A stretch of 34,525 nt of DNA from Elusimicrobiota bacterium. GTDB taxonomy: Bacteria; Elusimicrobiota; UBA8919. The position numbers and the translations under genes are program-made. The notes below the pieces were generated by a model. It did not search any database and was not told the origin of the DNA. It saw nothing but the letters and a program-made list of their open reading frames with translations. Positions 1,433 to 33,134 of the stretch are shown here, in pieces (the stretch's first letter is position 1; the number at the start of each line of letters is the position of its first letter). The DNA lies in contig DMMW01000010.1 in assembly GCA_003452965.1 (NCBI GenBank), positions 1 through 34,525 of the forward strand, written 5' to 3'.

Positions 1433-2083
1433 CTATGAACTCTTGATGAGTTTTCGACGGTATACTTCTGCTTCTAAAGTATCCATTTGCATGTAGATTT
1501 TTTCACTGAAAAAATTCATTTTGCCTAAAATTTTTGATGCTACAACGGTTTTACAGGCACTTTCAACATACAGTGTTCTGTAATACGCTTCCTTCAAATT
1601 TGAGCCAACTGTTAAAAGTCCATGATTAGCCATTAAAATTGCATTATGGTTTTTTATTACTTCGCTTACTTTGTTTGCAATATTTTTACTACTCGGAACT
1701 GCAAATTTAATAGTAGGTACATTTGAACTGATTATACCTACAAAATCCGGTGTAAATGCTTTTAATGTTTTACCTTGCATTGCATATGCGATAGAATACG
1801 GTGGATGTGTGTGTATTACAGCGGAAATATCTTTTCTTGTATAATAACAGGCGAGATGCATTTGTATTTCGCAGGTCGGTTTTCTATTGTCGTTAATATT
1901 TTTCCCGGTTTTCAGGTTAACTGCGATATAATCAGATTCCTTAGTATCTTCAAAACATGCACCAGATACTTTCATATAAACGGTATTATCTACTCGTACA
2001 CTGGTATTACCGCCGGGTCCGACGACAAAACCTTTATCGGCTAATTCTTTTCCTATTCTAACCAGTTCTTTTTTTATATTCAT
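1433..2083 (-). CDS. Class II aldolase/adducin-family protein (fuculose/rhamnulose-phosphate aldolase-like)
   Basis: Contains GPGGNTSVR, the IHTHPP metal-binding His pair and ANHGLLTVG. The track start at 2089 is a TTG; the first ATG is at 2083. No clear SD, and the heptamer array abuts the start. Confidence 0.8.
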   Translation of the reverse strand: MNIKKELVRIGKELADKGFVVGPGGNTSVRVDNTVYMKVSGACFEDTKESDYIAVNLKTGKNINDNRKPTCEIQMHLACYYTRKDISAVIHTHPPYSIAYAMQGKTLKAFTPDFVGIISSNVPTIKFAVPSSKNIANKVSEVIKNHNAILMANHGLLTVGSNLKEAYYRTLYVESACKTVVASKILGKMNFFSEKIYMQMDTLEAEVYRRKLIKSS

Positions 2084-2090
2084 AATCAAA

Positions 2091-2244
2091 ATTCAGGATA
2101 CAGGATACAGGATACAGAATACAGAATACAGAATACAGGATACAGGATACAGAATACAGGATACAGGATACAGAATACAGAATACAAGATACAGGATACA
2201 GAATACAAGATACAGGATACAGGATACAGGATACAGGATACAGT
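2091..2244. repeat. Tandem heptanucleotide array, ATACAGR x21 plus one degenerate leading unit (ATTCAGG)
   Basis: Counted unit by unit: 12 ATACAGG, 6 ATACAGA, 2 ATACAAG and 1 ATACAGT from 2098 to 2244. Intergenic, between the LsrF-like stop (2288) and the aldolase start (2083). Confidence 0.95.
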
Positions 2245-2287
2245 GCTCAGTAAACAGATTAAGTGATCTCTTTACCCTTCTACCTTT

Positions 2288-3175
2288 CTACCTCTTTACC
2301 TTTGTCGCTAATGTTTTATATAATTCTAACGCTTCTTGTGGTTTCATGTTTTTATGCACAACATTATTTACTGCTTTTATCATTGCAATAGGATTTTCGC
2401 TTTGGAATATGTTTCTGCCCATATCCACACCCGACGCACCCTGCTGTACGGCACTATATGCCATTGTAAGTGCATCCAACACTGGCAGTTTTTTACCGCC
2501 TGCCATAACAATGGGAACAGGACATGATGCCGTTATAGTTTCAAAATCTTCTGGAACATAATATGTTTTTACTACATGTGCACCCAATTCTGCACATATA
2601 CGGCATGCAAGCCGAAAATATTTAGCATCCCTTACCATATCCTTGCCTACTGCGGTTACTGCTAAAACAGGTATTCCATAACGCATTCCCATATCAACCA
2701 ACTTGGTCATATTATGTATTGACCGTGTCTCAAATTCACCTCCGATAAATACCTGTATTGCCATAGCTGATACATTCATTCTGATAGCATCTTCAATATC
2801 AACAGCTATTTCTTCATTTGAAAGTTCTTTTAAGATGCTTGGTCCACCGCTTGTTCTCATAACTATAGGTGTTGTAAACGACGGAGGTATAGTAGTTCTC
2901 AAGATTCCGCGGGTCAACATAATTGCATCTGCATATTTTACAAGCGGAACAATATTTAAATCAATCCGTTCCAATCCGGTTGTAGGTCCCTGAAAATAGC
3001 CATGATCTATTGCCAGCATGACCGTGCGTCCAGTATCGCTGTTGAATATTCTTGACAGGCGGTTTTTCATACCCCAATCTAAAGAATTAGACCCTTTAAG
3101 AAAAAAACATTCCGATTTCATTGGAATATCTTCATAATATTTTTTTTCTTCTTTATTTGCGTCTGTTTCCGGCAT
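2288..3175 (-). CDS. DhnA/FbaB/LsrF-family class I aldolase (TIM barrel)
   Basis: [12 protein letters not shown] and a GAHVVKTYY-type Schiff-base lysine region. The track ORF is trimmed to ATG at 3175 (MPETDANK...), which is preceded by GGAGG on the minus strand. Confidence 0.75.
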
Positions 3176-3259
3176 AACTCCTCCCTGGAAATTTATTAAT
3201 TTTAATAACCTCATTATATATAAAAAATATTTTATTTTCAATAAAAATTTAAAAACCTC

Positions 3260-3287
3260 TTGCAAATTATCAATGTTTAGATACAAT
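3260..3287 (+). promoter_or_regulatory. Putative sigma70-type promoter for the cupin/esterase genes (TTGCAA-16-TACAAT)
   Basis: TTGCAA at 3260-3265 and TACAAT at 3282-3287, about 27 nt upstream of the cupin ATG, within an AT-rich divergent intergenic region. Confidence 0.4.
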
Positions 3288-3313
3288 AATAGAAAATAAT
3301 ATTGGGAGATTTT

Positions 3314-3628
3314 ATGCCTATAATCTCGGGAAAGAATGCTGTGCAAAATACCGGTGAGTTCCCGGCATGGGGATTGGTTCACTTCAAAGCAGGACAGAAA
3401 AACATAACAGAATTACATTATCACGATAGTGACGAATTTTTCTTTATGATTGAAGGAAGATGTGTGATGAAATCGGAAGGGAAAATATATACTCTTGAAA
3501 AAGGCGATGTTTTTGTTACTCGCATGGGTGACGAACACGAACTTTTTGAGATATTGGAAGATACGACACTTTTTTGGCTATGCACAGAACTTCGCGGTCA
3601 AAAAAGGCAAGGACACCAGCACAGGTAA
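3314..3628 (+). CDS. Cupin-domain protein
   Basis: Cupin motif 1 is [14 protein letters not shown] and motif 2 region is [15 protein letters not shown]. The ATG at 3314 is preceded by GGGAG. Confidence 0.7.
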
Positions 3629-3654
3629 AAATGGATAAAGATTGGAGGAATGAT

Positions 3655-4617
3655 ATGTCATTAATATTTGGGATGTCTTTGAGAAAACTAAAAGAATATA
3701 AGGGCAGAAATCCGCGTCCTAAAGATTTCGATAAGTTTTGGGAAAGAGGTCTTTCTGAAATGAATTCAATAGCTCCAAAAATAAAAATAGTTCCTGCAAA
3801 GTTTCAGGTACCTTTTTGCAAGTGTTTGCATCTGTACTTTACTGGTGTAGGCGGAGCGCGTGTTCACGCAAAAGTTTTGCGTCCCAAAAAACCGGCTAAA
3901 AAACATCCTGCAATATTGATGTTTCACGGATATTCCTGCAGCAGCGGAGATTGGTACAACAAGCTTGCCTACGCAGCTTTGGGCTATACCGTTGCTTATT
4001 TAGATTGCCGCGGACAGGGTGGTTTATCCGAAGATAAAGGTGGGGTTACCGGCTGGACACTACACGGGCATATTGTTCGCGGATTAAGCGATTCGCCGGA
4101 AAAACTGTTATTCAGGAATATATTTCTTGATGTGGCCCAGATTGCCAAAATAGTAATGGAAATGTCCGACGTGGATGAAAACCGCGTTGGCGCCATAGGC
4201 GGCAGCATGGGCGGGGCACTTTCGTTAGTTTGCGCCGCATTGGAGCCGAGAATCAGAAGAGTTGCGCCTAATTATCCGTTTCTTTGCGATTATAAAGGTG
4301 TATGTGAAATGGATGTGACTAAAACAGCTTATGCGGAATTTCACGATTATTTCAGGAAATTTGATCCGTTACATGAAAGGGAAGAAGAGTTTTTTAACAA
4401 ACTTGGCTATATAGATGTTCAGCATTTTTGCAGCAGGATAAAAGCGGAGGTATTGATGGGTACCGGCTTGATGGATACCGATTGTCCGCCGTTCAGTCAG
4501 TTTGCCGCATACAATAAAATTAAGTCAAAAAAAACATTAGAAATATATCCGGATTTTGCGCATGAGGATTTTCCATATCATAACGATAAAATCTTCCAGT
4601 TTATGAGCAATCTATGA
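3655..4617 (+). CDS. Acetyl-xylan esterase / cephalosporin-C deacetylase family (CE7) serine hydrolase
   Basis: All three CE7 signatures are present: RGQ (CRGQGG), a GxSxG nucleophile elbow (GGSMGG) and HE (FAHEDF). The N-terminus LKEYKGRNPRPKDFDKFW is typical. The ATG at 3655 follows GGAGG at 3644-3648. An alternative ATG lies at 3631. Confidence 0.8.
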   Translation: MSLIFGMSLRKLKEYKGRNPRPKDFDKFWERGLSEMNSIAPKIKIVPAKFQVPFCKCLHLYFTGVGGARVHAKVLRPKKPAKKHPAILMFHGYSCSSGDWYNKLAYAALGYTVAYLDCRGQGGLSEDKGGVTGWTLHGHIVRGLSDSPEKLLFRNIFLDVAQIAKIVMEMSDVDENRVGAIGGSMGGALSLVCAALEPRIRRVAPNYPFLCDYKGVCEMDVTKTAYAEFHDYFRKFDPLHEREEEFFNKLGYIDVQHFCSRIKAEVLMGTGLMDTDCPPFSQFAAYNKIKSKKTLEIYPDFAHEDFPYHNDKIFQFMSNL

Positions 4618-4639
4618 TTAGGACAATGTAAAGGAAGTT

Positions 4640-4738
4640 ATGAAAATAGGCTTCATTGGATTAGATAAAATATATAGATGAAAAAATGGTTGCATTGGAA
4701 AATAAATGCAATCCCAAAAAGGTTACTCCATATTTTGT
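4640..4738 (+). pseudogene. Degenerate copy of the first ~100 nt of the ychF-like gene (5614)
   Basis: MKIGFIGLDKIYR* followed by frame-shifted DEKMVALENKCNPKKVTPYFV, compared with MKIGFIGIEIPEGKIKYKDEKFVALENKCEPKKITPYFV at 5614. It has its own AAGGAAG RBS. Confidence 0.75.
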
Positions 4739-4765
4739 TTAATAAAATCTCTTTAAAAAAATTAG

Positions 4766-4843
4766 TGTTTAGATACAATATTTATGAGGATTCTTGTAAT
4801 AAAAACTTTGTATGCTTGAAAAGGTGATATTTTTGTTGCCCGT
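4766..4843 (+). pseudogene. Remnant of a second promoter + cupin gene copy with a large internal deletion
   Basis: The 15-mer tgtttagatacaata is shared with 3274-3288. MRILVIK compares with MPIISGK. KGDIFVARLED compares with [11 protein letters not shown] after a 1-nt deletion that creates TGA at 4817. The remnant runs in frame into the UDG-like ORF. Confidence 0.55.
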
Positions 4844-5617
4844 TTGGAGGATAACATAAATAAATATGAATTTGGGTTTTTAGGTGCAAAATTCCGGGTT
4901 CACAAAGACTGGAAACATTTTTTTGAAAATATATGCCTGGAATGTATAGAGAAGAATATTAGAAGAGATAAAATTACACCTTCTAAAGAAAATATTTTCA
5001 AAGTTTTTGAGAAACTCGGTCCTAAAGATATTAAAGTAGTAATAATCGGGCAGGACCCATATCCGCAACCAAATATTGCAACAGGCCGCGCATTTGAAGT
5101 TAAAGAATTGAATTCATGGCTTATTCCATTCAGGCAAGCAACATTAAGAAACATTTTGAAAATGTTGTATAACTGGCATGACAGTAAGAAGAATAAAAAA
5201 GCTTCAAGATTAGAAAAAATTGAAATTATAAAAAACGCAATAGAAAAGAAAGATTATAATATATTGCCGCCGGATAAGGTATTTGATTATTGGGAAAAAC
5301 AAAAAATATTTTTATTGAATTTTGCATTGACATACAGGATGGGTAATTGTGATAGTGGGGATTCTCATTTAATGTATTGGAAAGATTTTAATTATAAATT
5401 GGTAAGATGTTTATCAAAAATAAATAAAAATATAGTATGGTTGTTATTCGGAAAAGTTAACGAAGAAAATAACTGGATTATTAAACAAAATGCTTTTTAT
5501 ATTGCCCATCCGTCTGACAGGAGGGGAATAAACCCTAAGGATTTAGAAAAAATACGTCAATTTTTCGATATTTCGGTTAAGAAACATAAAATAGATTGGC
5601 TCGGAGGAAATTTATGA
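4844..5617 (+). CDS. Divergent uracil-DNA glycosylase superfamily protein (family-1-like scaffold with altered motifs)
   Basis: VVIIGQDPYPQPNIATGRAFEV compares with the UNG motif GQDPYHGPGQAHGL. FLLNFALT, VWLLFGK and AHPSDRRG compare with HPSPLS. The start is uncertain: TTG at 4844 with no in-frame ATG near the 5' end. The stop overlaps the next start (ATGA). Confidence 0.65.
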   Translation: MEDNINKYEFGFLGAKFRVHKDWKHFFENICLECIEKNIRRDKITPSKENIFKVFEKLGPKDIKVVIIGQDPYPQPNIATGRAFEVKELNSWLIPFRQATLRNILKMLYNWHDSKKNKKASRLEKIEIIKNAIEKKDYNILPPDKVFDYWEKQKIFLLNFALTYRMGNCDSGDSHLMYWKDFNYKLVRCLSKINKNIVWLLFGKVNEENNWIIKQNAFYIAHPSDRRGINPKDLEKIRQFFDISVKKHKIDWLGGNL

Positions 5618-6303
5618 AGATAGGTTTTATCGGGATAGAAATACCTGAGGGTAAGATAAAATACAAAGATGAAAAATTTGTCGCATTGGAAAATAAATGC
5701 GAACCTAAAAAAATAACTCCATATTTTGTAGAATTCATTATTAATGAATTCGTTCAGGTAAACGCTATTGTTATTTCAAAAGATAAAATACTTGATTTGC
5801 TTATTCCCGATATTGAAAAACTTGAAGCACGTGTGCAGAATACAAATGATAATTTTGAAAAAGAATTAATAAAAAAATGTATATCTTGTCTTGAAAATGA
5901 AATGCCTTTATGTGACATCGTTTTTAACGAACAGGAACAGAAACTTCTTCAGATGCTGTCACCGAATAGCATGAAACCGATTGTAATTATTGATGACAAA
6001 GTTGAAACAAACGAAATAATTGAAAAAGTATTAAAAAAATCACAAACTATATTTTTTTATACAGCGGGAAAAGATGAGGTTCATGCCTGGCCTGTAAAAG
6101 CAGGTTCCGATATTGTGACCTGTGCGGGCAGGATACATTCCGATTTAGCACGCGGATTTATAAAAGCGGATATTGTAAGTTTTGACAATTTTATGAAATG
6201 CCATAATTTTAATGATGCCAAGACAAAAGGATTGGTAAAGCTAGTAGATAGGGAATATATTATCCAAGAATCAGATATTATAGAGATACGCTTCAATGTA
6301 TAA
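5614..6303 (+). CDS. YchF-like protein retaining the C-terminal TGS/DUF933 domain but with a degenerate P-loop
   Basis: The C-terminus AWPVKAGSDIVTCAGRIHSDLARGFIKADIVSF...EYIIQESDIIEIRFNV matches the YchF C-terminal domain. The N-terminus MKIGFIGIEIPEGK replaces G(L/I)VGLPNVGKST. GGAGG RBS, and the ATG overlaps the upstream stop. Confidence 0.7.
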   Translation: MKIGFIGIEIPEGKIKYKDEKFVALENKCEPKKITPYFVEFIINEFVQVNAIVISKDKILDLLIPDIEKLEARVQNTNDNFEKELIKKCISCLENEMPLCDIVFNEQEQKLLQMLSPNSMKPIVIIDDKVETNEIIEKVLKKSQTIFFYTAGKDEVHAWPVKAGSDIVTCAGRIHSDLARGFIKADIVSFDNFMKCHNFNDAKTKGLVKLVDREYIIQESDIIEIRFNV

Positions 6304-6630: not shown

Positions 6631-7714
6631 ATTGGAACTTAAATATAAACCGGATTTTGATTATGCAAAAGAAATGTGGAATCATTATTGGGCAAAAGAA
6701 GTATTGAAACGTCCGCTTGTGGTTGCCAATGTAGTTAAACAAGAAGGAAAAACTGTTGATAAAGATAAGTATAAGTATTATAATGCATGTACGAAGAATT
6801 ATAGAGAACAACTGACGATAATTGATGAATGGTTGGATAATACGTTATTTCTTGCTGAATCAATTCCGTGTTTTTCTCCAAGTCACGGTCCTGACCAGTT
6901 TGCTGCAATGCTCGGTGCTGATTTAAAATTTTCAGAAAGTAGCAAAACTACGAATTGGGTAGAACCTATAGTAGAAAATTGGGAAGAATTTATCCCGAAG
7001 ATTAAATTAAATGAAAATAATTCCGTCTGGCAAAGTCTTCTGGAATATTCAAAGATTCTTAAAGAACATTCAAAGGGGAAATATCTCGTTGGGATTTGCG
7101 ATTTTTATTCAAATGCCGATATGTTAAGTGCGATTCGGTCTCCGGCTAAATTGTGTATGGATTTTTATGATTATCCCGAATCAATAGCAAAGGCAATGTT
7201 ATCAGTCAGAAAATTATATAAAACGGTATATAATTCTTTATATGAAGCAGGCGGAATGAACAACGAAACCGGTACTATAGGGTGGATTCCTTTTTGGTGT
7301 AAAGATAAATATGCAACGATTCAATGTGATTTTATATGTATGGTATCACCGAAAATTGCAAATGAATATATAATTCCGGCATTAGAGGAAGAGGCGAATT
7401 TTCTTGACCATTGCATCTATCATCTTGACGGTCCCGGAGCATTACCACATCTTGATAATATTCTTGCAATAAAAAAAATTGATGCAATTCAGTGGATACC
7501 CGGTGATGGGCAGCCGCCGCAGTATGAATGGATTGATGTTCTGAAAAAATGCCAGAAAGCTGGTAAGGGACTTCAGATTTTGGATGTCACAAGCATAGAT
7601 ATTATAAAAAAATTCAGCAAAGAACTCAGTCCGGAAGGACTGGTATACTGCATAGACGTAAAGACTGAAAGAGAAGTTGATGAAATAACGACATGGCTTG
7701 AAAAAAACACTTGA
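6617..7714 (+). CDS. Hypothetical protein, possibly a uroporphyrinogen-decarboxylase (URO-D)-like TIM-barrel family member
   Basis: 365-aa ORF. The overall pattern (SHGPDQFAAMLGA..., CIYHLDGPGALPHLDNILAIKKIDAIQWIPG) recalls URO-D/MtaA-like proteins. The family call is from memory only. Confidence 0.4.
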   Translation: MKRSKLELKYKPDFDYAKEMWNHYWAKEVLKRPLVVANVVKQEGKTVDKDKYKYYNACTKNYREQLTIIDEWLDNTLFLAESIPCFSPSHGPDQFAAMLGADLKFSESSKTTNWVEPIVENWEEFIPKIKLNENNSVWQSLLEYSKILKEHSKGKYLVGICDFYSNADMLSAIRSPAKLCMDFYDYPESIAKAMLSVRKLYKTVYNSLYEAGGMNNETGTIGWIPFWCKDKYATIQCDFICMVSPKIANEYIIPALEEEANFLDHCIYHLDGPGALPHLDNILAIKKIDAIQWIPGDGQPPQYEWIDVLKKCQKAGKGLQILDVTSIDIIKKFSKELSPEGLVYCIDVKTEREVDEITTWLEKNT

Positions 7715-7926
7715 AGCTCCATCCCGATAACAATCGGGATTATAACATTTACCATAAGATTTTAAGGAGCGGAATCCGGCCCGTCAAGGCTTCGGCCTTG
7801 GCTGGCTGCAGGATGAAGCTCCATCCCGATAACAATCGGGATTATAACATTTACCATAAGATTTTAAGGAGCGGAATCCGGCCCGTCAAGGCTTCGGCCT
7901 TGGCTGGCTGCAGGATGAAGCTCCAT
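7712..7926 (+). repeat. Perfect 102-bp tandem duplication (7712-7813, 7814-7915) plus an 11-nt third start; each unit carries two hairpins
   Basis: The two units are identical by direct reading. Hairpin A is atcccgat-aaca-atcgggat (7721-7740 and 7823-7842). Hairpin B is caaggc-ttcg-gccttg (7785-7800 and 7887-7902), a C(UUCG)G tetraloop on the + strand. The array begins at the stop codon of the upstream gene. Confidence 0.95.
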
Positions 7927-9052: not shown

Positions 9053-10516
9053 ATGTGGGATAAGAATGTTCTGCAAGATTTAATGAAGGAAAAATTGGCA
9101 AAATATAAATTTATTATAGTTTCCAATAGACAGCCTTATGTTTTTGATTATGTTGGAAGAAAAGTTAAATGTACAAAAACTATAGGTGGTTTGGTAACAG
9201 CAATGGATCCCGTAATGCAGGCCTCAGAAGGTGTATGGGTAGCTGCTTCTTCAGGTGATGCCGATAACAGTGTTATTGACAAAAATAATATTGTAAAAGT
9301 TCCTCCTGAAAAATCTGCATATTCAATGAAATTGATAAATCTAACAAAAAATGAAGAACAAGGTTATTATTACGGTTATTCAAATCAGGCATTATGGCCG
9401 TTAAGTCATATTGCGTATCGTCAGCCCAATTTTATGCATTCCGATTGGGAGACTTATAAAAATGTAAATAAAAGATTTGCAGAAAGTGTTCTGGAATTGT
9501 TTGATGATAAGCAGCCTTTTATTTGGTTACAGGATTATCATTTAACTCTTTGTGCAAAATACATAAAAGAAAAAAAACCGGAAGCGGTGAGTTCCCTTTT
9601 TTGGCATATACCATGGCCAAATCCGGAAGTTTTCAGAGTATGTCCTCAGAAAACTGAAATTTTAGAGGGATTGTTAGCGAATGATTTATTGGGTTTTCAT
9701 ATCAAATATCATTGTCATAATTTTCTTGAAACATGTGAAATTGAATTAGAATCAAAAGTTGACTGGGAAGAATCAGCAGTAACGTATAAGGGACATAAGA
9801 CTTTAATTAAAGATTTTCCTATAAGTGTGGATTTTGAATCATTGTCTGAAATGGCTGGTAGTGCAGATGTTACTAAAAAGGTCGAGGATTTGTCTTTTGA
9901 AATAGACCCTCCGTATGAAATTCTTGCACTGAGTATTGACAGAGTTGATTATACAAAAGGTATAATTGAAAAAATTCGGGCTGTAGATAAATTTTTAGAA
10001 AAATATCCTGAATACCATAAAAAATTCGTTTTTTTTCAAAAGGGTGCGCTTAGCAGATTACATATTAAGGCATATAAGGAATTAATAGATGAAATTCAAG
10101 CGTTGACTGAGGAAATAAACTGGAAATATCGTTCCGGCAATTGGTATCCGATTGTGCTTTTAAACAAGAAAATTGATTATACAACGCATATCGCTTTATA
10201 TCGGGCATGCGATTTGTGTTTGGTAGGTTCTCTTCATGATGGAATGAATTTGGTTGCAAAAGAATTTATCTCTGCTAATGTTGATATAAAAGGCATTCTA
10301 ATGTTATCAAAATTCACAGGTGCCGCTAGGGAACTGAAAGATGCTGTTCTGGTAAATCCGTACGATACCGAAGGTTTTGCTGATGCTATAAAAATGGCGA
10401 TTGAAATTCCGCCCAATGAAAAAAAGGAACAGATAAAAAGGATGCGCGAACATATTCAAGAAAACAATATTTATAAGTGGGCTGGCAAGTTTATAAGCAC
10501 ATTAATAAAAATATAA
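9053..10516 (+). CDS. otsA: Trehalose-6-phosphate synthase (GT20)
   Basis: IVSNRQPY, NQALWPLSH, WLQDYHL, FWHIPWP, DRVDYTKGI and HDGMNLVAKEF. GGAGG lies before the ATG at 9053. Confidence 0.9.
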   Translation: MWDKNVLQDLMKEKLAKYKFIIVSNRQPYVFDYVGRKVKCTKTIGGLVTAMDPVMQASEGVWVAASSGDADNSVIDKNNIVKVPPEKSAYSMKLINLTKNEEQGYYYGYSNQALWPLSHIAYRQPNFMHSDWETYKNVNKRFAESVLELFDDKQPFIWLQDYHLTLCAKYIKEKKPEAVSSLFWHIPWPNPEVFRVCPQKTEILEGLLANDLLGFHIKYHCHNFLETCEIELESKVDWEESAVTYKGHKTLIKDFPISVDFESLSEMAGSADVTKKVEDLSFEIDPPYEILALSIDRVDYTKGIIEKIRAVDKFLEKYPEYHKKFVFFQKGALSRLHIKAYKELIDEIQALTEEINWKYRSGNWYPIVLLNKKIDYTTHIALYRACDLCLVGSLHDGMNLVAKEFISANVDIKGILMLSKFTGAARELKDAVLVNPYDTEGFADAIKMAIEIPPNEKKEQIKRMREHIQENNIYKWAGKFISTLIKI

Positions 10517-10536
10517 AAGCGGGCTATAGCACATAT

Positions 10537-12009
10537 ATGATTAAATTAATAAAAAAAATGTCTTTTAAATTAAAATTGATTATAATTATTTCTTTTATAA
10601 ATATTTTGGTTATATCTATTATTTCATATATAAGCATGCTCCACATGGAAAGAAGTTTAAAAGAGAGAATGGAATTAAGAACCAAGGTGATTGTTGATGT
10701 AATAGTACATAGCATTGATGACGAGACAAAATTAAAACGAGAGGTAATAGAAGAATATTCTAACTTTATTATCAATGAACGGGAGATACAATATATAGCA
10801 TTTTTTGATAAAAGAAATAATTTAATAAGTATAGCCGGTGAACGTGGAAAAACTGAAATTAAATTTGTTACAGAAAATATATTTGATATGCAAGATAATA
10901 TATACGATGTTTACGGGGAGATAATAGGAAAAAATAAAATAAAAATAGGTTCTATAATAGTAGGATTCCCGATTACAAAGCTGAAGCAGGCAATTAATAA
11001 AGGAGTAGTAACAAGTATAATATTATGGTTAATAGCTATCGTCGTGATAATGATTTTTAATTATTCAAGTTTAACATATTTTTTACGACCTATCAGAGAT
11101 TTATTTCGTGCAGCTGAATGTGTTTCCAAAAGGGACTTTAATTGCAAGATACCTGTTTATAATGCTGATGAAATCGGAAAAATATCAGAACAATTTAATC
11201 TTATGATAGTTGAATTAGAATCTTTTTATAATTCACTTGAGGAAAAAGTTAAAATAGCAACTAATGGATTAGAAGCATCAAATGAAAAATTAAAAGAGAA
11301 AACAAAAGAGTTGGAAGAAATGGATAAAAGGAAAACAGAGTTTGTTTCCATTGTCGCCCATGATTTAAGGTCGCCTCTTACTTCAATGATGGGTTTTGCG
11401 GATACATTAAACAATGAAAATTTAAATTTAAGCGAACAAGACAAAAAAAGATATATAAATATAATACGCACTGAAACGCGGCGACTATCAAAGCTAATTT
11501 CAAATTTCCTTGATATATCTTTAATTGAAGAAAACAAAATTGTTATGGATGCTGAAAAAACAGATTTAGAAGAATTAATTAATGATGTGCTTAATTCTAT
11601 GAGCGAAAACATAATAAAAGGGATAAGAATATCGCTTGAAGTTGGAGAAGATATTCCTCAAATTTATATGGACAGAGATAGAATAATTCAAGTTTTACAG
11701 AATCTCATTATCAATGCATTAAAATATTCACCTGAGATGTCTGAGATTAAAATTATAGCCAAAAGGTTTCCCGATGAAGTAAGGATAAGTGTAATAGACC
11801 AAGGTCCTGGAATACCGGACAGGCAAAAAGAAAAAATATTTAATAAATTTAGCAAATTGAGTGAACAAAAAGCAAAAAAGGAGTCTGGAATAGGTTTAGG
11901 ATTGTTCATAGCAAAATCTATTGTTAATCTGCATGGTGGCAAAATATGGGTTGAAGATGCTGAAAATAAAGGCAGTAATTTTTCATTTACATTGCCAATA
12001 AAGGAATAA
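10537..12009 (+). CDS. Membrane sensor histidine kinase (2 TM, extracytoplasmic domain, HAMP, HisKA, HATPase_c); no cognate response regulator in the window
   Basis: H-box FVSIVAHDLRSPL, N-box NLIINALKYS, G1 DQGPGIP and G2 GIGLGLFIAKS. HAMP-like ADEIGKISEQFNLM follows the second TM. Confidence 0.85.
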   Translation: MIKLIKKMSFKLKLIIIISFINILVISIISYISMLHMERSLKERMELRTKVIVDVIVHSIDDETKLKREVIEEYSNFIINEREIQYIAFFDKRNNLISIAGERGKTEIKFVTENIFDMQDNIYDVYGEIIGKNKIKIGSIIVGFPITKLKQAINKGVVTSIILWLIAIVVIMIFNYSSLTYFLRPIRDLFRAAECVSKRDFNCKIPVYNADEIGKISEQFNLMIVELESFYNSLEEKVKIATNGLEASNEKLKEKTKELEEMDKRKTEFVSIVAHDLRSPLTSMMGFADTLNNENLNLSEQDKKRYINIIRTETRRLSKLISNFLDISLIEENKIVMDAEKTDLEELINDVLNSMSENIIKGIRISLEVGEDIPQIYMDRDRIIQVLQNLIINALKYSPEMSEIKIIAKRFPDEVRISVIDQGPGIPDRQKEKIFNKFSKLSEQKAKKESGIGLGLFIAKSIVNLHGGKIWVEDAENKGSNFSFTLPIKE

Positions 12010-12013
12010 AGTA

Positions 12014-13417
12014 GTGTTTAGAAAATATTTTCCGAAAGAAATAAAAATAAAACAAAGAGTTTTTGAACAGAGTATTCTAATAGCAAGTATCGTAAAATGG
12101 ACTTTATTGGCGATAATAATAGGAACTGTTGTAGGATTTTCTACCGGACTATTTTTATTTTCTTTGGATATTACAATTAGTTTTTTTAATAGATTTAATT
12201 ATTATTTTTTTATTTTACCAATAATTATTTTACTTATTGCCATAACAATAAGGAATATTTCTCCTGAATCGGAGGGACATGGCACAGAAAAAGTTATAGA
12301 ATCTATTCATAAAACACACGGACAAATTTCTTGGAAGGTTATACCCATCAAAGCCATAACTTCGATTCTTACTATTACTTTCGGAGGTTCGGTAGGTAAG
12401 GAAGGCCCTTGCGCACAGATAGGGGGTGGAATAGCTTCTTTATTCTCAAACATTTTAAAATTTCATCCAATTGACCGTAAAAAACTTGTAATTTGTGGAA
12501 TAAGTGCCGGTTTTGCTGCCGTTTTTGGAACTCCTATTGCTGGTGCGCTTTTCGGTGTTGAGGTTTTGTTCATAGGACAGATTTTTTATGAAGTATTATA
12601 TCCGTCTTTCATTGCTGGAATTGTGGGTTTTCAAACCTGCAGATTATTCGGTATAACATATTTCACACATCCGATAAATCTTGTCCCTAAATTTACTGAT
12701 TTATTTTTATTAAAAGTAGTTGCTTTTTCAATTCTTATTGGTTTGGTTGCATATTTATTCATTGAGACATTAAATTTCACCCATAAAAAGTTCAAAAAGA
12801 TTCCTTATAAAAAGAGAGCTATATTAGGTGGTTTATTAGTTGTATTTATTGTACAGGTTACTTCTCGGAGATATCTTGGACTTGGATTGGATACTATAGC
12901 GCAAGCTATCAATGGTGAACATATACCTAAACTTGCTTTTTTGTGGAAGACAATAGTAACATCTATTACATTGTCATGTGGCGGTAGTGGTGGGATTGTG
13001 ACTCCTATTTTTTACGTAGGTGCTGCAAGCGGGAACTTGTTTGCAAGGATATTTAATTTTGATTTAGGTACATTTTCAGCAATTGGTATGACATCTCTTC
13101 TTGCTGCCTGCACAAATACACCAATTGCCTCATCAGTTATGGCGATAGAGTTATTTGGACCCAAAGTGGGTATTTATTCTGCGATTTGTTCAATTATTAG
13201 TTTTACTATAGTTGGCTACAGGTCTGTATATCCAAGCCAAATATTAGGTGTTCTAAAAAGCCAGAGTTTCAAGGTGGAATTAAATAAAGAAATTAAGGAT
13301 GTAGAAAGCACGGAACAATTCAAGATGTTTTCACAACGAAATACATTAACACATATTATAATATCAATATATTTAAAGATAAAAAAATGTAGATTATTCA
13401 TGAAAAAAAAGAAATGA
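12014..13417 (+). CDS. ClC-family voltage-gated chloride channel / H+-Cl- antiporter
   Basis: GGSVGKEGP, FGTPIAGALFGVE and GGSGGIVTPIFYVGA, with multiple TM helices. GTG start with AAGGA 8 nt upstream, and no internal Met for over 100 aa. Confidence 0.85.
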   Translation: MFRKYFPKEIKIKQRVFEQSILIASIVKWTLLAIIIGTVVGFSTGLFLFSLDITISFFNRFNYYFFILPIIILLIAITIRNISPESEGHGTEKVIESIHKTHGQISWKVIPIKAITSILTITFGGSVGKEGPCAQIGGGIASLFSNILKFHPIDRKKLVICGISAGFAAVFGTPIAGALFGVEVLFIGQIFYEVLYPSFIAGIVGFQTCRLFGITYFTHPINLVPKFTDLFLLKVVAFSILIGLVAYLFIETLNFTHKKFKKIPYKKRAILGGLLVVFIVQVTSRRYLGLGLDTIAQAINGEHIPKLAFLWKTIVTSITLSCGGSGGIVTPIFYVGAASGNLFARIFNFDLGTFSAIGMTSLLAACTNTPIASSVMAIELFGPKVGIYSAICSIISFTIVGYRSVYPSQILGVLKSQSFKVELNKEIKDVESTEQFKMFSQRNTLTHIIISIYLKIKKCRLFMKKKK

Positions 13418-13476
13418 AATATTTTTTTAAAGAATTAGGAAAAATAAAAGGGTACAAAATATTAAGAAAATTATGA
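13414..13476 (+). pseudogene. Duplicated, truncated 5' end of otsB (MKYFFKELGKIKGYKILRKL*)
   Basis: A 37-nt exact match, 13412-13448 = 13701-13737. Its ATG overlaps the ClC stop (ATGA), as expected for the ancestral ClC/otsB junction. Confidence 0.8.
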
Positions 13477-13649
13477 AAAATCATGGTTTTTCACTAGACG
13501 CGATATTTTCATCAAGGCATGCCTTGATGAACGGCTCAAAAAACACTAAAATTTCAAAACTCACTTGCTATGCTCGTTCAGACAGTTGAAATTTTTTAAC
13601 GGTTTTTTATCGCCTAAATATCGCTATATCGTTCAAAACCAGATTTTTC
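13475..13649. mobile_element. 175-bp non-coding element with imperfect ~35-nt terminal inverted repeats and two internal hairpins (MITE-like or structured RNA)
   Basis: The left end gaaaaatcatggtttt...gcgatattt matches the reverse complement of the right end, gaaaaatctggtttt...gcgatattt. Internal features are the 22-bp perfect palindrome tcatcaaggcatgccttgatga (13509-13530) and the pair aaaatttcaa/ttgaaatttt (13548-13605). Confidence 0.5.
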
Positions 13650-13702
13650 GATAATGTAATTATTCTTGAAAGATGTGAATTATTTTTTAAAAAAAATAAA
13701 AA

Positions 13703-14473
13703 ATGAAATATTTTTTTAAAGAATTAGGAAAAATAAAGAAAAAAATAAAAGGATATAAAATATTACTCTGCCTGGATTATGATGGTACTCTAACCCCCAT
13801 AGTTAAAAAGCCAGAATATGCCAAACTCGGGCAAAACATTAAGCATGCTTTAGAAAACATTAAAAGTAATAAAAATATTATATTGGCTATAATATCAGGC
13901 AGGACTTTATCAGGAATAAAAAAATTAGTCAATCTTAGAAATGTTATTTATGCAGGCAATCACGGTTTTGAAATAGAGATAGGCAGGGATGTTTTTATCC
14001 ATCGGGGACTCAAGGAAGCTATTCCGATAATCAGCAAAATAAAAAAAGCGATAAGTAAAAAAATAAAAGGAATACGGGGTGCATTTATTGAGGATAAAGA
14101 ATTTACATTAAGCATTCATTGGCGGTTGGTCAAAAAAAAATATTTAAATAAGTTGTTTCTAATAATTAAAAATATTATACATAATAATAGTAAAATAAGA
14201 TTAACCATAGGTAAAAAGGTATGGGAAATCAGGCCTAATATTGCTTGGGATAAGGGTAAAGCCGTTGAATTAATATATTCAAAAGTAAATAAAAATAATA
14301 ATTTAAAAATCATATATATAGGTGATGATACAACTGATGAAGATGCTTTCTCGGTATTGAAAAAAGAAATAACAATAAAAATCGGTAAATCAAATAAGTC
14401 AAAAGCAAAATATTATTTAAAAAAACAATCAGAAATAAAAAATATTCTCAATTTATTGAGTAATATAGGCTGA
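13703..14473 (+). CDS. otsB: Trehalose-6-phosphate phosphatase (HAD-IIB)
   Basis: LCLDYDGTLTP (DxDGT), ISGR, and the WDKG...YIGDDTTDEDAF motif. Confidence 0.85.
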   Translation: MKYFFKELGKIKKKIKGYKILLCLDYDGTLTPIVKKPEYAKLGQNIKHALENIKSNKNIILAIISGRTLSGIKKLVNLRNVIYAGNHGFEIEIGRDVFIHRGLKEAIPIISKIKKAISKKIKGIRGAFIEDKEFTLSIHWRLVKKKYLNKLFLIIKNIIHNNSKIRLTIGKKVWEIRPNIAWDKGKAVELIYSKVNKNNNLKIIYIGDDTTDEDAFSVLKKEITIKIGKSNKSKAKYYLKKQSEIKNILNLLSNIG

Positions 14474-26847: not shown

Positions 26848-27238
26848 GGGGGCTGGGACTATGCTCTTGACTTTTTATTGTAGTATGTCCCCCAAGGTCC
26901 ATAGTAAACAACGAATGGTATTTTGGGGAATACAATACCTAAATAACGTCAAAAAAAATGAAAAATCAATGAAAACACAACTAATTGCTGAAGCAAACGT
27001 ATGGTGGAAATTTGGTAAAAACTTTTCTTACATATCAAAAGAATTACAAAGGAATTGACCCTACCCCATTAAATTTTACTAATACTAAATCCTATCTAAA
27101 AATTACTTGACAATTTATGAATATTATTATAAGACATATATGTAATATAAATGATAGTATACACGGTAAATGCGAGCAAATAATAGCATACTCATAAGTA
27201 TCCTACTCGTGAGTATTCTAACTAAAAGGGTGCGGTTT

Positions 27239-27574
27239 ATGGAGCATAAATTCATAAATAGAAAATCTGAAATTGATTCATTAGAAAAAAAGTGGGAAGA
27301 GAAAAAAAGCCACTTGATTATTGTTTACGGCAAAAGGCGTGTAGGTAAAACGGAAATCATAAAACAGTTTATTAAAAATAAACCCTCTGTATATTTCTTG
27401 GCTGACAAACGGACTATAAACGAACAACTCAAAGAATTAGGCAGGTTATTCGGCGCTCATTTCAAAGATGCCCTACTTGAAAAGAACGGATTTACCGACG
27501 ATATGCTGAAACTGGCGAAACAAGAACGTGTTTACTTAGTCAACAAGAACGAATTGATTGAGATGCAAGAGTAA
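27239..27574 (+). pseudogene. Internally deleted ATPase of the Arch_ATPase + DUF234 type (N-terminal ~95 aa joined to the last ~30 aa)
   Basis: FINRKSEIDSLEKKW..HLIIVYGKRRVGKTEIIKQFIKNKPSVYFLA (Walker A) runs directly into GFTDDMLKLAKQERVYLVNKNEL, the typical extreme C-terminus of such ~450-aa proteins. Confidence 0.6.
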
Positions 27575-27624
27575 TAAGACAGTATAGGTCGCGACAGAGC
27601 AACAGTTTATAAGTTAAAGATTGA

Positions 27625-27891
27625 TTCGTTGCATTAGTATTTAAAGAAATTGGACGAGCTGACGAGATGGGGTCGGGTGTCAGGAAACTCTATAAATATT
27701 GTAAAATCAACTCGGGATTAAATCCCCAGTTGATAGAAGAGGATATATTTAAAATTATTATTCCATTAGATGAGCAAGTTGGTGAGCAAGTCCTAAAGAT
27801 ACTTAAATACTGTAAAATCTCAAGAAAGAAGCAAGAAATATCCGATATGTTATATCCCGACGAAGGAACGGAAATCTTTCACTTTATATGA
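27625..27891 (+). pseudogene. C-terminal fragment of a COG2865-type (HATPase_c_4 + wHTH) protein, paralogous to the 27961 gene
   Basis: FKEIGRADEMGSGVRKLYKYCKINSGLNPQLIEEDIFKIIIPL compares with QQAGSGTLEMLKQCKAKGLPEPDF in the intact neighbour. The open frame starts only at 27625, just after a stop. Confidence 0.5.
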
Positions 27892-27923
27892 TAAAAGATG
27901 AAAAACCAAAAAGACCCCGTTCC

Positions 27924-27951
27924 TTGATTTTTCACTGTAAAAGAGTATAAT
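27924..27951 (+). promoter_or_regulatory. Putative promoter TTGATT-16-TATAAT ending 9 nt before the ATG (near-leaderless transcript)
   Basis: TTGATT at 27924-27929 and TATAAT at 27946-27951, with the ATG at 27961 and no SD between them. Confidence 0.4.
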
Positions 27952-27960
27952 CAAATCATT

Positions 27961-29436
27961 ATGAAAAAGTATAAAATATTCGTGAGTGGTGTGCAGAAAG
28001 AACTCAAAGCAGAACGCCGGGCAGTGAAAGATTCGATTCTCGGTGATGTCTTGCTCTCCGAGTATTTTGACGTTTTCTTGTTTGAAGATTCACCGGCTAA
28101 AAGCCATTCAGCAGAAAAGGCATATCTTGAAGAAGTCCGTAAAGGCAATATCTATATCAGCATTCTTGGCGATAAATACGGCAGCACGGGCAAGAATAAA
28201 ATTTCTCCTACCGAAGCAGAATTTCGGGAAGCAAAAACCAAGCATAAAGACATTTTAATTTATATAAAAGGTGAAAACTCCGTTGATAAAAACCGTGAAG
28301 CAGGCGTACAGAAACTTATTAAGGAGATTAAAGATTCCAAGGTGGGTTATTGTTATCGCAGATTTAATTCCATCAGCGAATTAACCAACCTTGTTTATGA
28401 AAGTTTGATTGTCTTTTTAAAAGAGAAAGGAGAAGTCGGCAGAGCCGTATTTGACCAGCGGATATGCGACAGTGCGACTTTCTCCGATATTGACGATGAA
28501 AAAGTTAAGTGGTTTTTAAAAACAGCACGAGCCAAACGGAATTTTCCACTTGCTCTTGATTCTTCAACACAAGATGTTTTTACTCATCTAAAACTTTTGA
28601 AAGACGGCAAATTGACCAACGCCGCAGTTTTATTATTCGGCAAAGAACCGAGAAAGTTTTTTGACCAGGCAAAAATCAAATGTATTCATCTGCCAAGTAC
28701 CGAAGTAGAGAAACCGTTCACATCATATCAAATTTACGAAGGGAATTTATTTGAGCAGGTGGACAAGGCAGTTAGTTTTGTATTTGATATACTCAAATTC
28801 CCTGTTATTCAGCAGGAACATACTGTCCAGGTATCTCGGCCCCGTGAAATTCCAGTATTCGTGGTTCAGGAAGCCATCGTCAACGCAGTTGCTCACCGCG
28901 ACTATAACACGACGTCCTCTGTTCAGGTAATGGTATTTCTTGACCGAGTGGAAATATGGAATTCTGGGACTTTACCAGCCCACTTAAAAATAGAAGACCT
29001 CAAAAAACCACACGCATCTCACCCGACAAATACTTTATTAGCCACAGTAATGTTTTTTGCCGATTACATTCAACAAGCAGGTTCGGGAACATTGGAGATG
29101 CTCAAACAGTGTAAGGCAAAGGGACTTCCCGAGCCGGACTTCGTATCAGTGCGGAATCTTGAATTCAAAACAATATTAGCCAGAGATATTTTTACGGAAG
29201 AGGTCTTAAATAAACTGGGATTGAATGAACGCCAGTTAAAAGCAGTAAAATATGTAAAAGAAAAAGGCAGAATAACGAATAAAGAATATCAGTTAAATTT
29301 TGGTGTTAAGAAAAGACAAGCAACAGATGATTTAAAAGATTTAGAAAATAAAGAGGTCTTAATTAAGATTGGATCTACTGGAAGGGGAACATATTACAAG
29401 GTTAATGGGGCGATAATGGGGCGAAAGGGGCAATAA
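27961..29436 (+). CDS. Fusion protein: N-terminal DUF4062-like domain + COG2865-type body (HATPase_c_4-like) + C-terminal wHTH
   Basis: The N-terminus KIFVSGVQKELKAERRAVKDSI...GNIYISILGDKYGS matches my recollection of the DUF4062 pattern. The middle and C-terminal parts (LTNAAVLLFGKEP, VQEAIVNAVAHRDY, VEIWNSGTLP, AGSGTLEMLKQCKAKGLPEPDF) are typical of RecG-like/COG2865 putative regulators. Confidence 0.75.
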   Translation: MKKYKIFVSGVQKELKAERRAVKDSILGDVLLSEYFDVFLFEDSPAKSHSAEKAYLEEVRKGNIYISILGDKYGSTGKNKISPTEAEFREAKTKHKDILIYIKGENSVDKNREAGVQKLIKEIKDSKVGYCYRRFNSISELTNLVYESLIVFLKEKGEVGRAVFDQRICDSATFSDIDDEKVKWFLKTARAKRNFPLALDSSTQDVFTHLKLLKDGKLTNAAVLLFGKEPRKFFDQAKIKCIHLPSTEVEKPFTSYQIYEGNLFEQVDKAVSFVFDILKFPVIQQEHTVQVSRPREIPVFVVQEAIVNAVAHRDYNTTSSVQVMVFLDRVEIWNSGTLPAHLKIEDLKKPHASHPTNTLLATVMFFADYIQQAGSGTLEMLKQCKAKGLPEPDFVSVRNLEFKTILARDIFTEEVLNKLGLNERQLKAVKYVKEKGRITNKEYQLNFGVKKRQATDDLKDLENKEVLIKIGSTGRGTYYKVNGAIMGRKGQ

Positions 29437-29452
29437 AGGGGCGATAATGGGG
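29407..29452 (+). repeat. Five phased GGGG runs (~11-nt period; GGGGCGATAAT-type units) overlapping the gene's stop; canonical G-quadruplex motif
   Basis: GGGG at 29407, 29418, 29427, 29438 and 29449, with loops of 5-7 nt. The unit ggggcgataat occurs exactly twice. Confidence 0.9.
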
Positions 29453-29697
29453 CAGAGCATTTAAAAAGACAGTATGTTTTTCCGATATAAAAACAGGAAA
29501 GCGCATTGGTCTCGATAAAGGCGGCCACTGGATTATCCTTCGTAGCAATAATAAAGTGGGAAAAGTTGTAGAGAAATAAAAAGAAAAATGTAAAGCGTCC
29601 ACATTTTCCTAATACACAATATGACACACAGATAAAGAACCTAAAATTAGGATTATCATTTCAAAACATAGGTCCCAAAATGACATTTATACAAGAG

Positions 29698-29875
29698 TGA
29701 CCCCACCCCCGAAAACTGTACCAGTTGAAATTAGAGTTTAGAAATGGTAAACTAAACTCATGGGGGTATGGTTATGAAACAGGGCAGGTACAAGGAAGAG
29801 CAGATTATCGGGATATTGAAGGAAGCAGAAGCCGGCATAAAGATAGATAAATTATGCCGTAAATAAGGATTAAAT
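29698..29875 (+). mobile_element. Truncated IS3-family remnant: left end (TGACCCCACCCCC...) plus the first 30 codons of orfA
   Basis: MKQGRYKEEQIIGILKEAEAGIKIDKLCRK* (29774-29866) matches the conserved IS3 OrfA HTH N-terminus (..EEQIIGILKEAEAG....LCRK). A TGA-initiated terminal sequence lies about 75 nt upstream. No remainder of the transposase is present. Confidence 0.6.
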
Positions 29876-29881
29876 GAGATT

Positions 29882-33121: not shown

Positions 33122-33134
33122 TGAAGTATAATTT

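What the first reader, a model, noticed from the sequence alone, without database searches (positions are those of the whole stretch)
13412..13737. Inverted-repeat element inserted at the ClC/otsB overlap, flanked by an unusually long (37-bp exact, ~60-bp overall) duplication of the junction
The ClC stop and an otsB-type ATG overlap (ATGA) at 13414-13417, but this otsB start runs only 20 codons. The real otsB begins 289 nt later with the identical 37 nt.

Between the copies lies a 175-bp element (13475-13649). It has ~35-nt imperfect terminal inverted repeats, a 22-bp perfect palindrome and a second hairpin.

Target duplications of classic MITEs are 2-10 bp. A duplication of several dozen bp points to a different insertion or repair mechanism, or to selection to regenerate the otsB 5' end.

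The insertion also uncouples otsB translation from ClC, and may add a new regulatory RNA structure or promoter within the operon.
Basis: seen in the sequence. Interest (0 to 1): 0.5.

Follow-up and report, generated by a model that had tools for sequence, protein, structure and literature searches.

The report
Foldback repeat inserted with 90-nt duplication
A roughly 200-base hairpin-forming repeat element sits between a chloride-channel gene and a trehalose-phosphatase gene in an uncultivated Elusimicrobia bacterium, and an unusually long duplication of the gene junction (about 85-95 bases) on either side of it keeps both genes intact.

Summary
ClC ends and a 20-codon otsB stub begins at ATGA (13414-13417). 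The true otsB starts 289 nt later, and 37 nt are identical (13412-13448 = 13701-13737). Overall X (13382-13464) is repeated as X' (13668-13765) at 88% identity with two indels.

Between them lies Y (13465-13667), a long imperfect foldback with a 24-nt perfect palindrome. Its fold z-score is about -5 on both strands.

- **Relatives have the empty site.** L013/L014 and L135 carry otsA-ClC-otsB with stop and start overlapping and no insert.
- **A second copy exists.** It is 86% identical and comes from the same groundwater samples, between a metallophosphatase gene and a GFO/IDH/MocA gene. It has no long flanking repeat.
- **The fold is maintained.** The two copies differ by five compensatory base-pair changes and no broken pair. 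Three of these changes are in the palindrome.
- **It is not coding.** The small ORF inside the element is frameshifted between copies.
- **No Rfam family matches.**

Y is therefore a member of a new dispersed MITE-like foldback family. The 83-98-nt duplication belongs to this insertion event, not to the family. How it arose is unresolved. My best guess is a single event with widely spaced target nicks or a break, followed by fill-in. Copy number in the genome could not be measured.

The parts
12014..13417 (+). ClC-type chloride channel gene. Its last 11 codons and its stop lie inside duplication copy X.
   Evidence: Pfam Voltage_CLC, E = 2.4e-75. The stop TGA at 13415-13417 overlaps the ATG at 13414.
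13382..13464 (+). X, the upstream copy of the duplicated ClC/otsB junction (83 nt). It holds the functional ClC 3' end and a decayed otsB 5' stub.
   Evidence: 88% identical to 13668-13765, with a 12-nt deletion relative to the ancestral length.
13414..13476 (+). otsB 5' stub ORF of 20 codons. It is still overlapped with the ClC stop (ATGA).
   Evidence: Its first 12 codons are identical to otsB.
13465..13667 (.). Y, the inserted foldback (MITE-like) element of about 203 nt. The core shared with the second copy is 13470-13656.
   Evidence: It is absent from the ClC/otsB junctions of L013, L014 and L135. It is 86% identical to L139 5013-5200. Fold z-scores are about -5. The foldback score is above all shuffles.
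13470..13497 (.). Left terminal inverted repeat
   Evidence: It pairs with 13630-13656 (I13, 11, 48). All 21 pairs of this helix are invariant in both copies.
13508..13531 (.). 24-nt perfect palindrome (hairpin side-branch of the left arm)
   Evidence: I14. It is unique in the window. In copy 2 it reads TTCATCCCGACATGTCGGGATGAA, which gives three compensatory pair changes.
13548..13595 (.). Apical hairpin of the foldback (10-bp stem, variable loop)
   Evidence: I17. There is one compensatory change, and a 9-nt indel in the loop between the copies.
13630..13656 (.). Right terminal inverted repeat
13668..13765 (+). X', the downstream copy of the duplicated junction (98 nt). It holds a relic of the ClC 3' end and the functional otsB start.
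   Evidence: It continues seamlessly into otsB.
13703..14473 (+). otsB (trehalose-6-phosphate phosphatase), intact
   Evidence: Pfam Trehalose_PPase, E = 9.8e-48. Homologues are listed.

Best explanation
**What it is.** Y is one copy of a small, non-coding foldback repeat of MITE type. The family is dispersed in an Elusimicrobia population from Rifle groundwater (MAG RIFOXYC2_FULL_34_12).

**Ancestral state.** The ClC stop and the otsB start overlapped (ATGA), leaving no intergenic space.

**The event.** The element entered this junction in a single event in which the two target strands were opened about 85-95 nt apart. The openings were either widely staggered nicks or a resected break. Fill-in of the single-stranded flanks then duplicated the junction.

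**Result.** The upstream copy keeps the ClC 3' end plus a dead 20-codon otsB stub. The downstream copy keeps a dead ClC relic plus the intact otsB start.

**Why it is seen here.** Only an insertion whose duplication spans both the stop and the start leaves both genes functional, so only such an event could survive at this site.

**Consequences (inferred).**
- otsB is no longer translationally coupled to ClC and must initiate on its own, 286 nt downstream.
- A very stable hairpin (about -50 kcal/mol) now sits in the otsA-HK-ClC-otsB transcript.

**Shown:** insertion relative to relatives; membership of a repeat family; maintenance of the fold; non-coding nature.

**Inferred:** the one-step origin of the duplication; any effect on expression.
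For: - **Empty sites.** L013/L014 (OtsB 61% identical) and L135 (58%) have otsA-ClC-otsB with overlapping stop and start and no insert. otsB is also fused by ATGA to its upstream gene in L011.
- **Second copy.** It lies at L139 5013-5200 and is 86% identical over 198 columns. It comes from 7 of the same samples. In ERZ4902888 its coverage is similar (12.1x against 14.8x). Its flanking proteins are 72-73% identical to the Elusimicrobia MAG behind L138, the same distance as the window's DUF933 protein.
- **Fold maintained.** Of 59 consensus pairs, 5 changed on both sides and none is broken. Slid controls give 0-1 such changes.
- **Not coding.** The 38-codon ORF is frameshifted in copy 2.
- **The duplication abuts the element.** It does so on both sides to within about 5-11 nt.
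- **Precedent for long duplications.** IS1549 and IS1634 produce variable direct repeats of 8-514 bp (PMC2266710).
- **Precedent for capture at a duplication junction.** A mobile element was caught between the two copies of a new duplication (bioRxiv 10.1101/2024.06.02.596822).
- **Real sequence.** The region is identical in 10 independent contigs.
Against: - **Few copies found.** Only two copies are known. No related transposase and no autonomous element with matching ends was identified.
- **No long repeat at copy 2.** Copy 2 shows no long flanking repeat and no convincing short one either. The long duplication is therefore not a constant property of the family.
- **Tandem duplications arise without insertion here.** The population carries a 102-nt tandem duplication at 7712-7915 (polymorphic) and a 34-nt one across the left end of copy 2 (L149). 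This makes a two-step origin plausible.
- **Element ends are imprecise.** With two copies they are defined only to about 5-10 nt, so exact adjacency of element and duplication cannot be proved.
- **Age is uncertain.** X/X' divergence (12%) is as large as the divergence between the two element copies (about 8%). Nothing is known about the state just after insertion.
Confidence: 0.5

Rival explanations
1. Two independent steps. First a tandem duplication of about 95 nt arose across the ClC/otsB junction by replication slippage. Later the foldback element inserted, with little or no target duplication, at the joint between the two copies.
For: Tandem duplications of this size exist in the same population. 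One is a perfect 102-nt duplication at 7712-7915, present in the window and L008 but single-copy in L001-L003, L006 and L007. The other is a 34-nt duplication across the left end of copy 2, in L149 only. Copy 2 has no long repeat, which fits an element that itself makes little or no target duplication.
Against: The element would have to land at the joint of the two copies. I estimate the chance at about 10%, given roughly 95 nt of dispensable sequence. No variant carrying the duplication alone was found.
Confidence: 0.25
2. Recombination between two alleles. One allele had the element inserted 33 nt before the ClC stop. An illegitimate (microhomology) joint with an intact allele then stacked the two junctions in tandem. 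This resembles homology-facilitated illegitimate recombination after DNA uptake.
For: The same window holds a rearrangement of this kind. Relative to L136, a cupin-AXE1 block is inserted. It carries a 107-nt stub of the DUF933 5' end (4632-4738 against 5605-5729) and a second copy of the upstream promoter region (3252-3288 against 4744-4780). The last 7 nt of X (AATATTA) resemble the left flank of copy 2 (AATGTTA), a possible microhomology.
Against: It needs a hypothetical intermediate allele that was not seen. Ordinary homologous recombination between such alleles would simply remove the element. The flank similarity is not significant.
Confidence: 0.12
3. Y is not mobile DNA. It is a structured cis-regulatory leader RNA shared by two sugar-metabolism operons.
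For: Both copies lie in the same orientation, about 35-50 nt upstream of the start codon of a co-directional gene. Copy 2 follows an 11/12 sigma-70-like promoter match at L139 4957-4985. Base pairs covary.
Against: It is absent upstream of otsB in every relative examined. No Rfam family comes near its threshold. Stems are almost identical in sequence while the apical loop carries a 9-nt indel, which is the opposite of the usual riboswitch pattern. All 59 consensus pairs are Watson-Crick with no G-U, so the structure is strand-symmetric. Its arrival is accompanied by a duplication of the target.
Confidence: 0.08
4. X and X' are the attL/attR repeats of a decayed integrative element that targeted the otsB 5' end. 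Y is what is left of that element.
For: Direct repeats of tens of bases that regenerate a gene end are typical of site-specific integrative elements (general knowledge).
Against: No integrase or recombinase is present in the 34.5-kb window. Y is a compact foldback that recurs at an unrelated locus without such repeats.
Confidence: 0.03

Closest known systems
Bacterial MITEs and foldback repeats (for example Correia/NEMIS, ERIC, RUP)
   Same: Small size (about 190-200 nt), terminal inverted repeats, ability to fold into one long hairpin, no coding capacity, more than one copy, location between co-directional genes inside transcription units.
   Different: Classic MITEs have target duplications of 2-10 bp, whereas this copy is flanked by 83-98 nt. 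Only two copies are known, no parent IS is known, and there is no sequence similarity to any family I could search.
IS1634 / IS1549 (IS1634 family), which make long, variable direct repeats
   Same: Direct repeats of very variable length (8-514 bp depending on the copy, PMC2266710). This would accommodate about 90 nt at one copy and almost none at another.
   Different: Those are 1.5-2 kb autonomous insertion sequences encoding a DDE transposase. No such transposase or matching ends were linked to this element.
Dup-IS-Dup rearrangements (Ngan et al., bioRxiv 10.1101/2024.06.02.596822)
   Same: A mobile element sits exactly between the two copies of a new direct duplication, without its usual target duplication. 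The authors interpret this as insertion into a break during formation of the duplication.
   Different: That case was a 60-kb duplication with a 1.3-kb IS481 element, observed in the laboratory. Here the duplication is about 90 nt, the element is about 200 nt, and the event is ancient.
REP/BIME-type intercistronic hairpins
   Same: A stable extragenic hairpin inside an operon transcript. By analogy it could protect upstream mRNA or alter relative expression (general knowledge).
   Different: REPs are units of 20-40 nt present in hundreds of copies and associated with RAYT transposases. No such features were seen here.

Membership tests
MITE (miniature inverted-repeat transposable element) | Small size (under about 500 bp) and no coding capacity | tested here: met
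   The insert is about 203 nt with a 187-nt shared core. The only ORF (38 codons) is frameshifted in copy 2. No protein homologues were found other than the spurious ORF called on copy 2.
MITE (miniature inverted-repeat transposable element) | Terminal inverted repeats | tested here: met
   13470-13497 pairs with 13630-13656. The 21-pair helix is invariant in both copies.
MITE (miniature inverted-repeat transposable element) | Multiple dispersed copies in one genome | tested here: inconclusive
   Two loci were found. Assignment to the same genome is inferred from shared samples, coverage and protein distances. The genome-wide count was not obtainable: the genome scan was saturated by chance hits.
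MITE (miniature inverted-repeat transposable element) | Short, constant target-site duplication (2-10 bp) | tested here: not met
   The window copy is flanked by 83-98 nt. Copy 2 has no adjacent direct repeat.
MITE (miniature inverted-repeat transposable element) | A related autonomous IS with the same ends | not testable with these tools
   No transposase is present in the window. The rest of the genome could not be fetched.
IS1634-family type of insertion (long variable direct repeats) | Mobilised by an IS1634-family DDE transposase | not testable with these tools
   No candidate transposase could be linked to the element. The only support is the literature precedent.
IS200/IS605-derived palindrome-associated elements | Subterminal hairpins on one strand, no terminal inverted repeats, no target duplication, fixed 4-5-nt target at the left end | tested here: not met
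   The ends pair with each other over a long range. The local left-end hairpin is not conserved in copy 2, with three disrupting changes. A shared ATRTTA to the left of both copies is suggestive, but it is not significant.
Any Rfam RNA family | Score at or above the family's gathering threshold | tested here: not met
   There are no matches at gathering thresholds in the window. The best sub-threshold hits are 13-21 bits against thresholds of 37-100 bits.
Integrative-element remnant (attL/attR) | Integrase nearby, or the same repeats flanking a larger element elsewhere | tested here: not met
   There is no recombinase in 34.5 kb. Copy 2 lacks such repeats.

The most novel reading that the evidence does not exclude
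This Elusimicrobia lineage has an insertion or repair process that routinely opens targets about 100 nt apart. The foldback element would be one of its substrates.

Three duplications of similar length lie within 34 kb:
- the 83-98-nt junction duplication around Y;
- the 107-125-nt DUF933 5' stub next to an inserted cupin-AXE1 block;
- a polymorphic 102-nt tandem duplication.

If they share one cause, it would be a way of inserting DNA into tightly packed operons while regenerating the interrupted gene ends.
Probability: 0.15. Interest if true: 0.65.

Novelty: new variant of a known kind. Interest (0 to 1): 0.4.

Why it matters
Tightly packed operons with overlapping stop and start codons should be closed to insertions. 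This case shows one way in: an insertion accompanied by a duplication long enough to regenerate both gene ends.

It also adds a structured, fold-maintaining repeat family to a phylum (Elusimicrobia) known almost only from metagenomes. If the long duplication turns out to be made by the element's own mobilising enzyme, it would give IS1634-like long target duplications a non-autonomous counterpart.

For annotation, it is a reminder that short 5' gene stubs upstream of an intact gene mark old insertion events.

Tried and rejected
- **Metagenome scan.** I used the 20-nt palindrome core. It gave 4 hits, all unrelated GC-rich coding DNA. The source contig itself is not in that collection, so this negative carries little weight.
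- **Genome scan.** I used a degenerate terminal-repeat pattern, which was too unspecific.
- **Viral, plasmid and phage searches.** Five viral-contig scans with 20-25-mers, plus plasmid and phage blastn, found nothing.
- **Chimeric six-frame peptide query** against the 5.8-billion-protein set. It found nothing. This was a false negative, because the later exhaustive search with one frame found P0241.
- **Exact look-up of the 38-aa ORF.** It is not on record.
- **Covariance model** of the two copies, searched over 184 kb of held Elusimicrobia sequence. It found no further copy.
- **Tandem duplication followed by decay of an otsB segment into Y.** Rejected: Y has no similarity to otsB or to anything else in the window.
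- **Assembly artefact.** Rejected.
- **Coding function of the internal ORF.** Rejected (frameshift).
- **Terminator or promoter inside Y.** There are no terminator-like sites, and promoter-like matches are within the range seen in shuffled controls (7 found against 4.0 +/- 1.8 expected).
- **Remnants of a UDG gene upstream of AXE1,** to test a duplication-plus-replacement model for the side finding. None were found.
Full report
**Observation**

The window comes from an uncultivated Elusimicrobia bacterium from Rifle groundwater. The contig is MGVQ01000085.1 of GCA_001800565.1, and a protein of the window is named RIFOXYC2_FULL_34_12.

Around the finding lies a trehalose cluster: ldh, otsA, a histidine kinase, a ClC channel, otsB, DUF5752 and TreT. 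ClC (12014-13417) ends with TGA at 13415-13417. That stop overlaps an ATG at 13414, which opens only a 20-codon ORF whose first 12 residues equal those of OtsB. The real otsB starts at 13703.

The stretch 13412-13448 is identical to 13701-13737, 37 nt. With gaps, 13382-13464 (X) aligns to 13668-13765 (X') with 73 matches, 10 mismatches and two indels. X' has the ancestral length, and X carries a 12-nt deletion.

The 203 nt between them (Y, 13465-13667) form one long imperfect foldback. Its self-complement score is 92, against 38.7 +/- 8.6 for shuffles. It carries a 24-nt perfect palindrome at 13508-13531 as a side branch. Predicted folding is about five standard deviations better than shuffled sequence on either strand.

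The 390 nt around the site are identical in ten contigs from different samples and assemblers, so it is not an assembly artefact.

**Is it an insertion?**

OtsB homologues jump from 100% to 62% identity, so no very close relative is available. More distant Elusimicrobia do carry the same gene order without the insert:
- In L013/L014, otsA-ClC-otsB has the ClC stop and the otsB start overlapping as TAATG.
- In L135 they overlap as ATGA, exactly as in copy X.
- In L011, L015 and L134, otsB abuts or overlaps otsA.

A coupled junction is therefore ancestral. Y plus one copy of the junction is extra DNA in this lineage.

**Is Y a repeat element?**

The first searches failed.
- There is nothing else like Y in the window.
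- There is nothing in plasmids, phages or viral contigs.
- The metagenome scan with the palindrome returned only unrelated coding DNA.
- My genome scan used too loose a pattern and was swamped by chance hits.
- A chimeric six-frame peptide query also found nothing.

An exhaustive HMMER search with the 44-residue stop-free translation of the left half of Y then found a 47-aa predicted protein, P0241 (E = 2.6e-8). Its gene lies on 13 contigs. Of the 10 fetched (L139-L148), 7 come from samples that also yielded the window's contig.

There, L139 5013-5200 is 86% identical to window 13458-13655. It sits between a metallophosphatase gene and a GFO/IDH/MocA gene.

Evidence that this contig belongs to the same genome:
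- It has similar coverage in the same assembly (12.1x against 14.8x).
- Its proteins are 72-73% identical to those of the Elusimicrobia MAG behind L138. That is the same distance as the window's DUF933 protein.

So it most likely belongs to the same genome, though this is inferred. The negative was therefore a false negative, and further copies may exist that I could not detect. A covariance model of the two copies found no third copy in 184 kb of held Elusimicrobia sequence.

**What the two copies show**

- **Extent of similarity.** Similarity is confined to a 187-nt core (window 13470-13656). The flanks are not significantly alike (p = 0.28 and 0.96).
- **Pattern of substitutions.** Within the core I count about 14 substitutions by eye from the alignment. 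Ten of them form five compensatory pairs, and the rest fall in unpaired positions. Of 59 consensus pairs none is broken.
- **The palindrome.** Three of the compensatory pairs turn CATCAAGGCATGCCTTGATG into CATCCCGACATGTCGGGATG, so the palindrome is kept while its sequence changes.
- **The loop and the ORF.** The apical loop carries a 9-nt indel, and a 1-nt indel frameshifts the only ORF. The element is therefore non-coding, and its pairing is what is maintained.
- **Limits of the statistics.** With two sequences they are weak (15 of 500 shuffles reach the observed value), and the structure was derived from these same sequences.
- **Strand.** All pairs are Watson-Crick, so the data do not say whether an RNA, single-stranded DNA or a DNA-level correction process maintains the fold.
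- **Known RNA families.** No Rfam family matches.

**The long duplication**

Copy 2 has no long flanking repeat and no convincing short one. The 83-98-nt duplication therefore belongs to this particular insertion, not to the family as a whole. Known precedents fall into two groups:
- IS1549 and IS1634 give direct repeats of 8-514 bp that vary by copy, with no accepted mechanism (PMC2266710).
- An IS481 element has been caught exactly between the two copies of a new duplication, without its normal target duplication. This was read as insertion into a break (bioRxiv 10.1101/2024.06.02.596822).

Either way a single event would place the element exactly between the two copies, as seen here to within 5-11 nt.

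The main rival is a two-step history: a tandem duplication first, then insertion at its joint. This population does carry such duplications:
- a perfect 102-nt one at 7712-7915, present in the window and L008 but single-copy in five other assemblies;
- a 34-nt one across the left end of copy 2 in strain variant L149, which is 99.7% identical to L139 elsewhere.

The two-step history needs the element to hit the joint, which I estimate at about 10%.

A third possibility is recombination between alleles. It is prompted by a second stub in the window. Relative to the sister MAG (L136), a cupin-AXE1 block is inserted between the DeoC-side promoter and the UDG-DUF933 pair. The block carries a frameshifted 107-nt copy of the DUF933 5' end and a second copy of the promoter region.

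I put the single-event reading at about 0.5, the two-step reading at 0.25, allele recombination at 0.12 and the remaining rivals (regulatory leader 0.08, integrative-element remnant 0.03) at about 0.1.

Whatever the mechanism, selection explains the site. With overlapping genes, only a duplication that spans both the stop and the start leaves ClC and otsB intact.

**Consequences**

This part is inferred. otsB is now 286 nt from the ClC stop and must initiate independently. The stub remains coupled to ClC.

A hairpin of about -50 kcal/mol sits in the transcript. No terminator-like site was found, and promoter-like matches are within the range seen in shuffled controls.

Both copies lie in the same orientation 35-50 nt upstream of a start codon, and copy 2 follows an 11/12 promoter match. 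A leader-RNA role therefore cannot be excluded, but several points argue against a native regulator:
- the element is absent in relatives;
- its stems are nearly identical in sequence while its loop is variable;
- its arrival was accompanied by a duplication of the target.

X and X' differ by 12%, as much as the two element copies differ from each other. The insertion is thus old and fixed. The 37-nt identical block inside otherwise diverged copies (about p = 0.03 under uniform mismatches, my estimate) hints at gene conversion or constraint, and remains unexplained.

**Verdict**

Y is a new MITE-like foldback family. It departs from the classic definition in its flanking duplication at this copy.

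It is of moderate interest to mobile-DNA specialists. It would become more interesting if long duplications prove to be a regular product of the process that moves it.

Noticed in passing
window 3252-5729 (3252-3288 / 4744-4780; 4632-4738 / 5605-5729): This is a second stub of a gene's 5' end. Relative to the sister MAG (L136: DeoC <- -> UDG-DUF933), the window has an inserted cupin-AXE1 block. The block is followed by a frameshifted 107-nt copy of the DUF933 5' end (84% identical to the real start at 5614). A second, 81% identical copy of the upstream promoter region is also present. UDG and DUF933 also overlap by ATGA.
   Followed up: partly
window 7712-7915: A perfect 102-nt tandem duplication lies upstream of ldh. 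It is GC-rich for this genome and each unit carries two hairpins. The window and L008 have two units. L001-L003, L006 and L007 have one. L004 and L005 break there. This is either a population polymorphism or assembler collapse. No Rfam match.
   Followed up: partly
L149 215-300 (JGI 3300025152), compared with L139 5001-5034: A strain variant of the copy-2 locus (99.7% identical elsewhere) carries a 34-nt tandem duplication (ATGATTTTAGGTAATGTTAAAAATATTATTAAAA x2). It spans the left flank and the first bases of the element. The variant also has a 1-nt insertion in the apical loop.
   Followed up: partly
window 2087-2250: There is an array of about 25 heptamers (CAGGATA / CAGAATA / CAAGATA) between the aldolase gene (1433-2089, minus strand) and the DeoC gene (2288-3382, minus strand).
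   Followed up: no
window 13412-13448 / 13701-13737: A 37-nt block is perfectly identical inside duplication copies that otherwise differ by about 12% plus indels. This may reflect gene conversion between the copies, or a constraint on the stub's start region.
   Followed up: no
window 13473-13589: The stub's stop codon overlaps (ATGA again) the ATG of a 38-codon ORF that runs through the left arm of the element. The ORF is frameshifted in copy 2, so it is not a conserved gene. Ribosomes coupled from ClC could nevertheless enter the hairpin.
   Followed up: yes
L139 4957-4985: A strong sigma-70-like promoter match (TTGACA-17-TATCAT, 11 of 12) lies directly upstream of copy 2. This would place that copy in the 5' leader of the GFO/IDH/MocA-aminotransferase operon.
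   Followed up: partly
window 10477-12009: A HAMP/HisKA/HATPase histidine kinase gene sits between otsA and ClC. It overlaps the otsA end by 40 nt as listed. It is absent from that position in L013 and L135, where otsA is followed directly by ClC.
   Followed up: no
window 27170-34169: This is a cluster of defence-like genes: an ATPase_2 fragment, DUF4062 + HATPase_c_4, a 1079-aa PLD-nuclease/SNF2-helicase fusion, and a YhcG PDDEXK nuclease.
   Followed up: no
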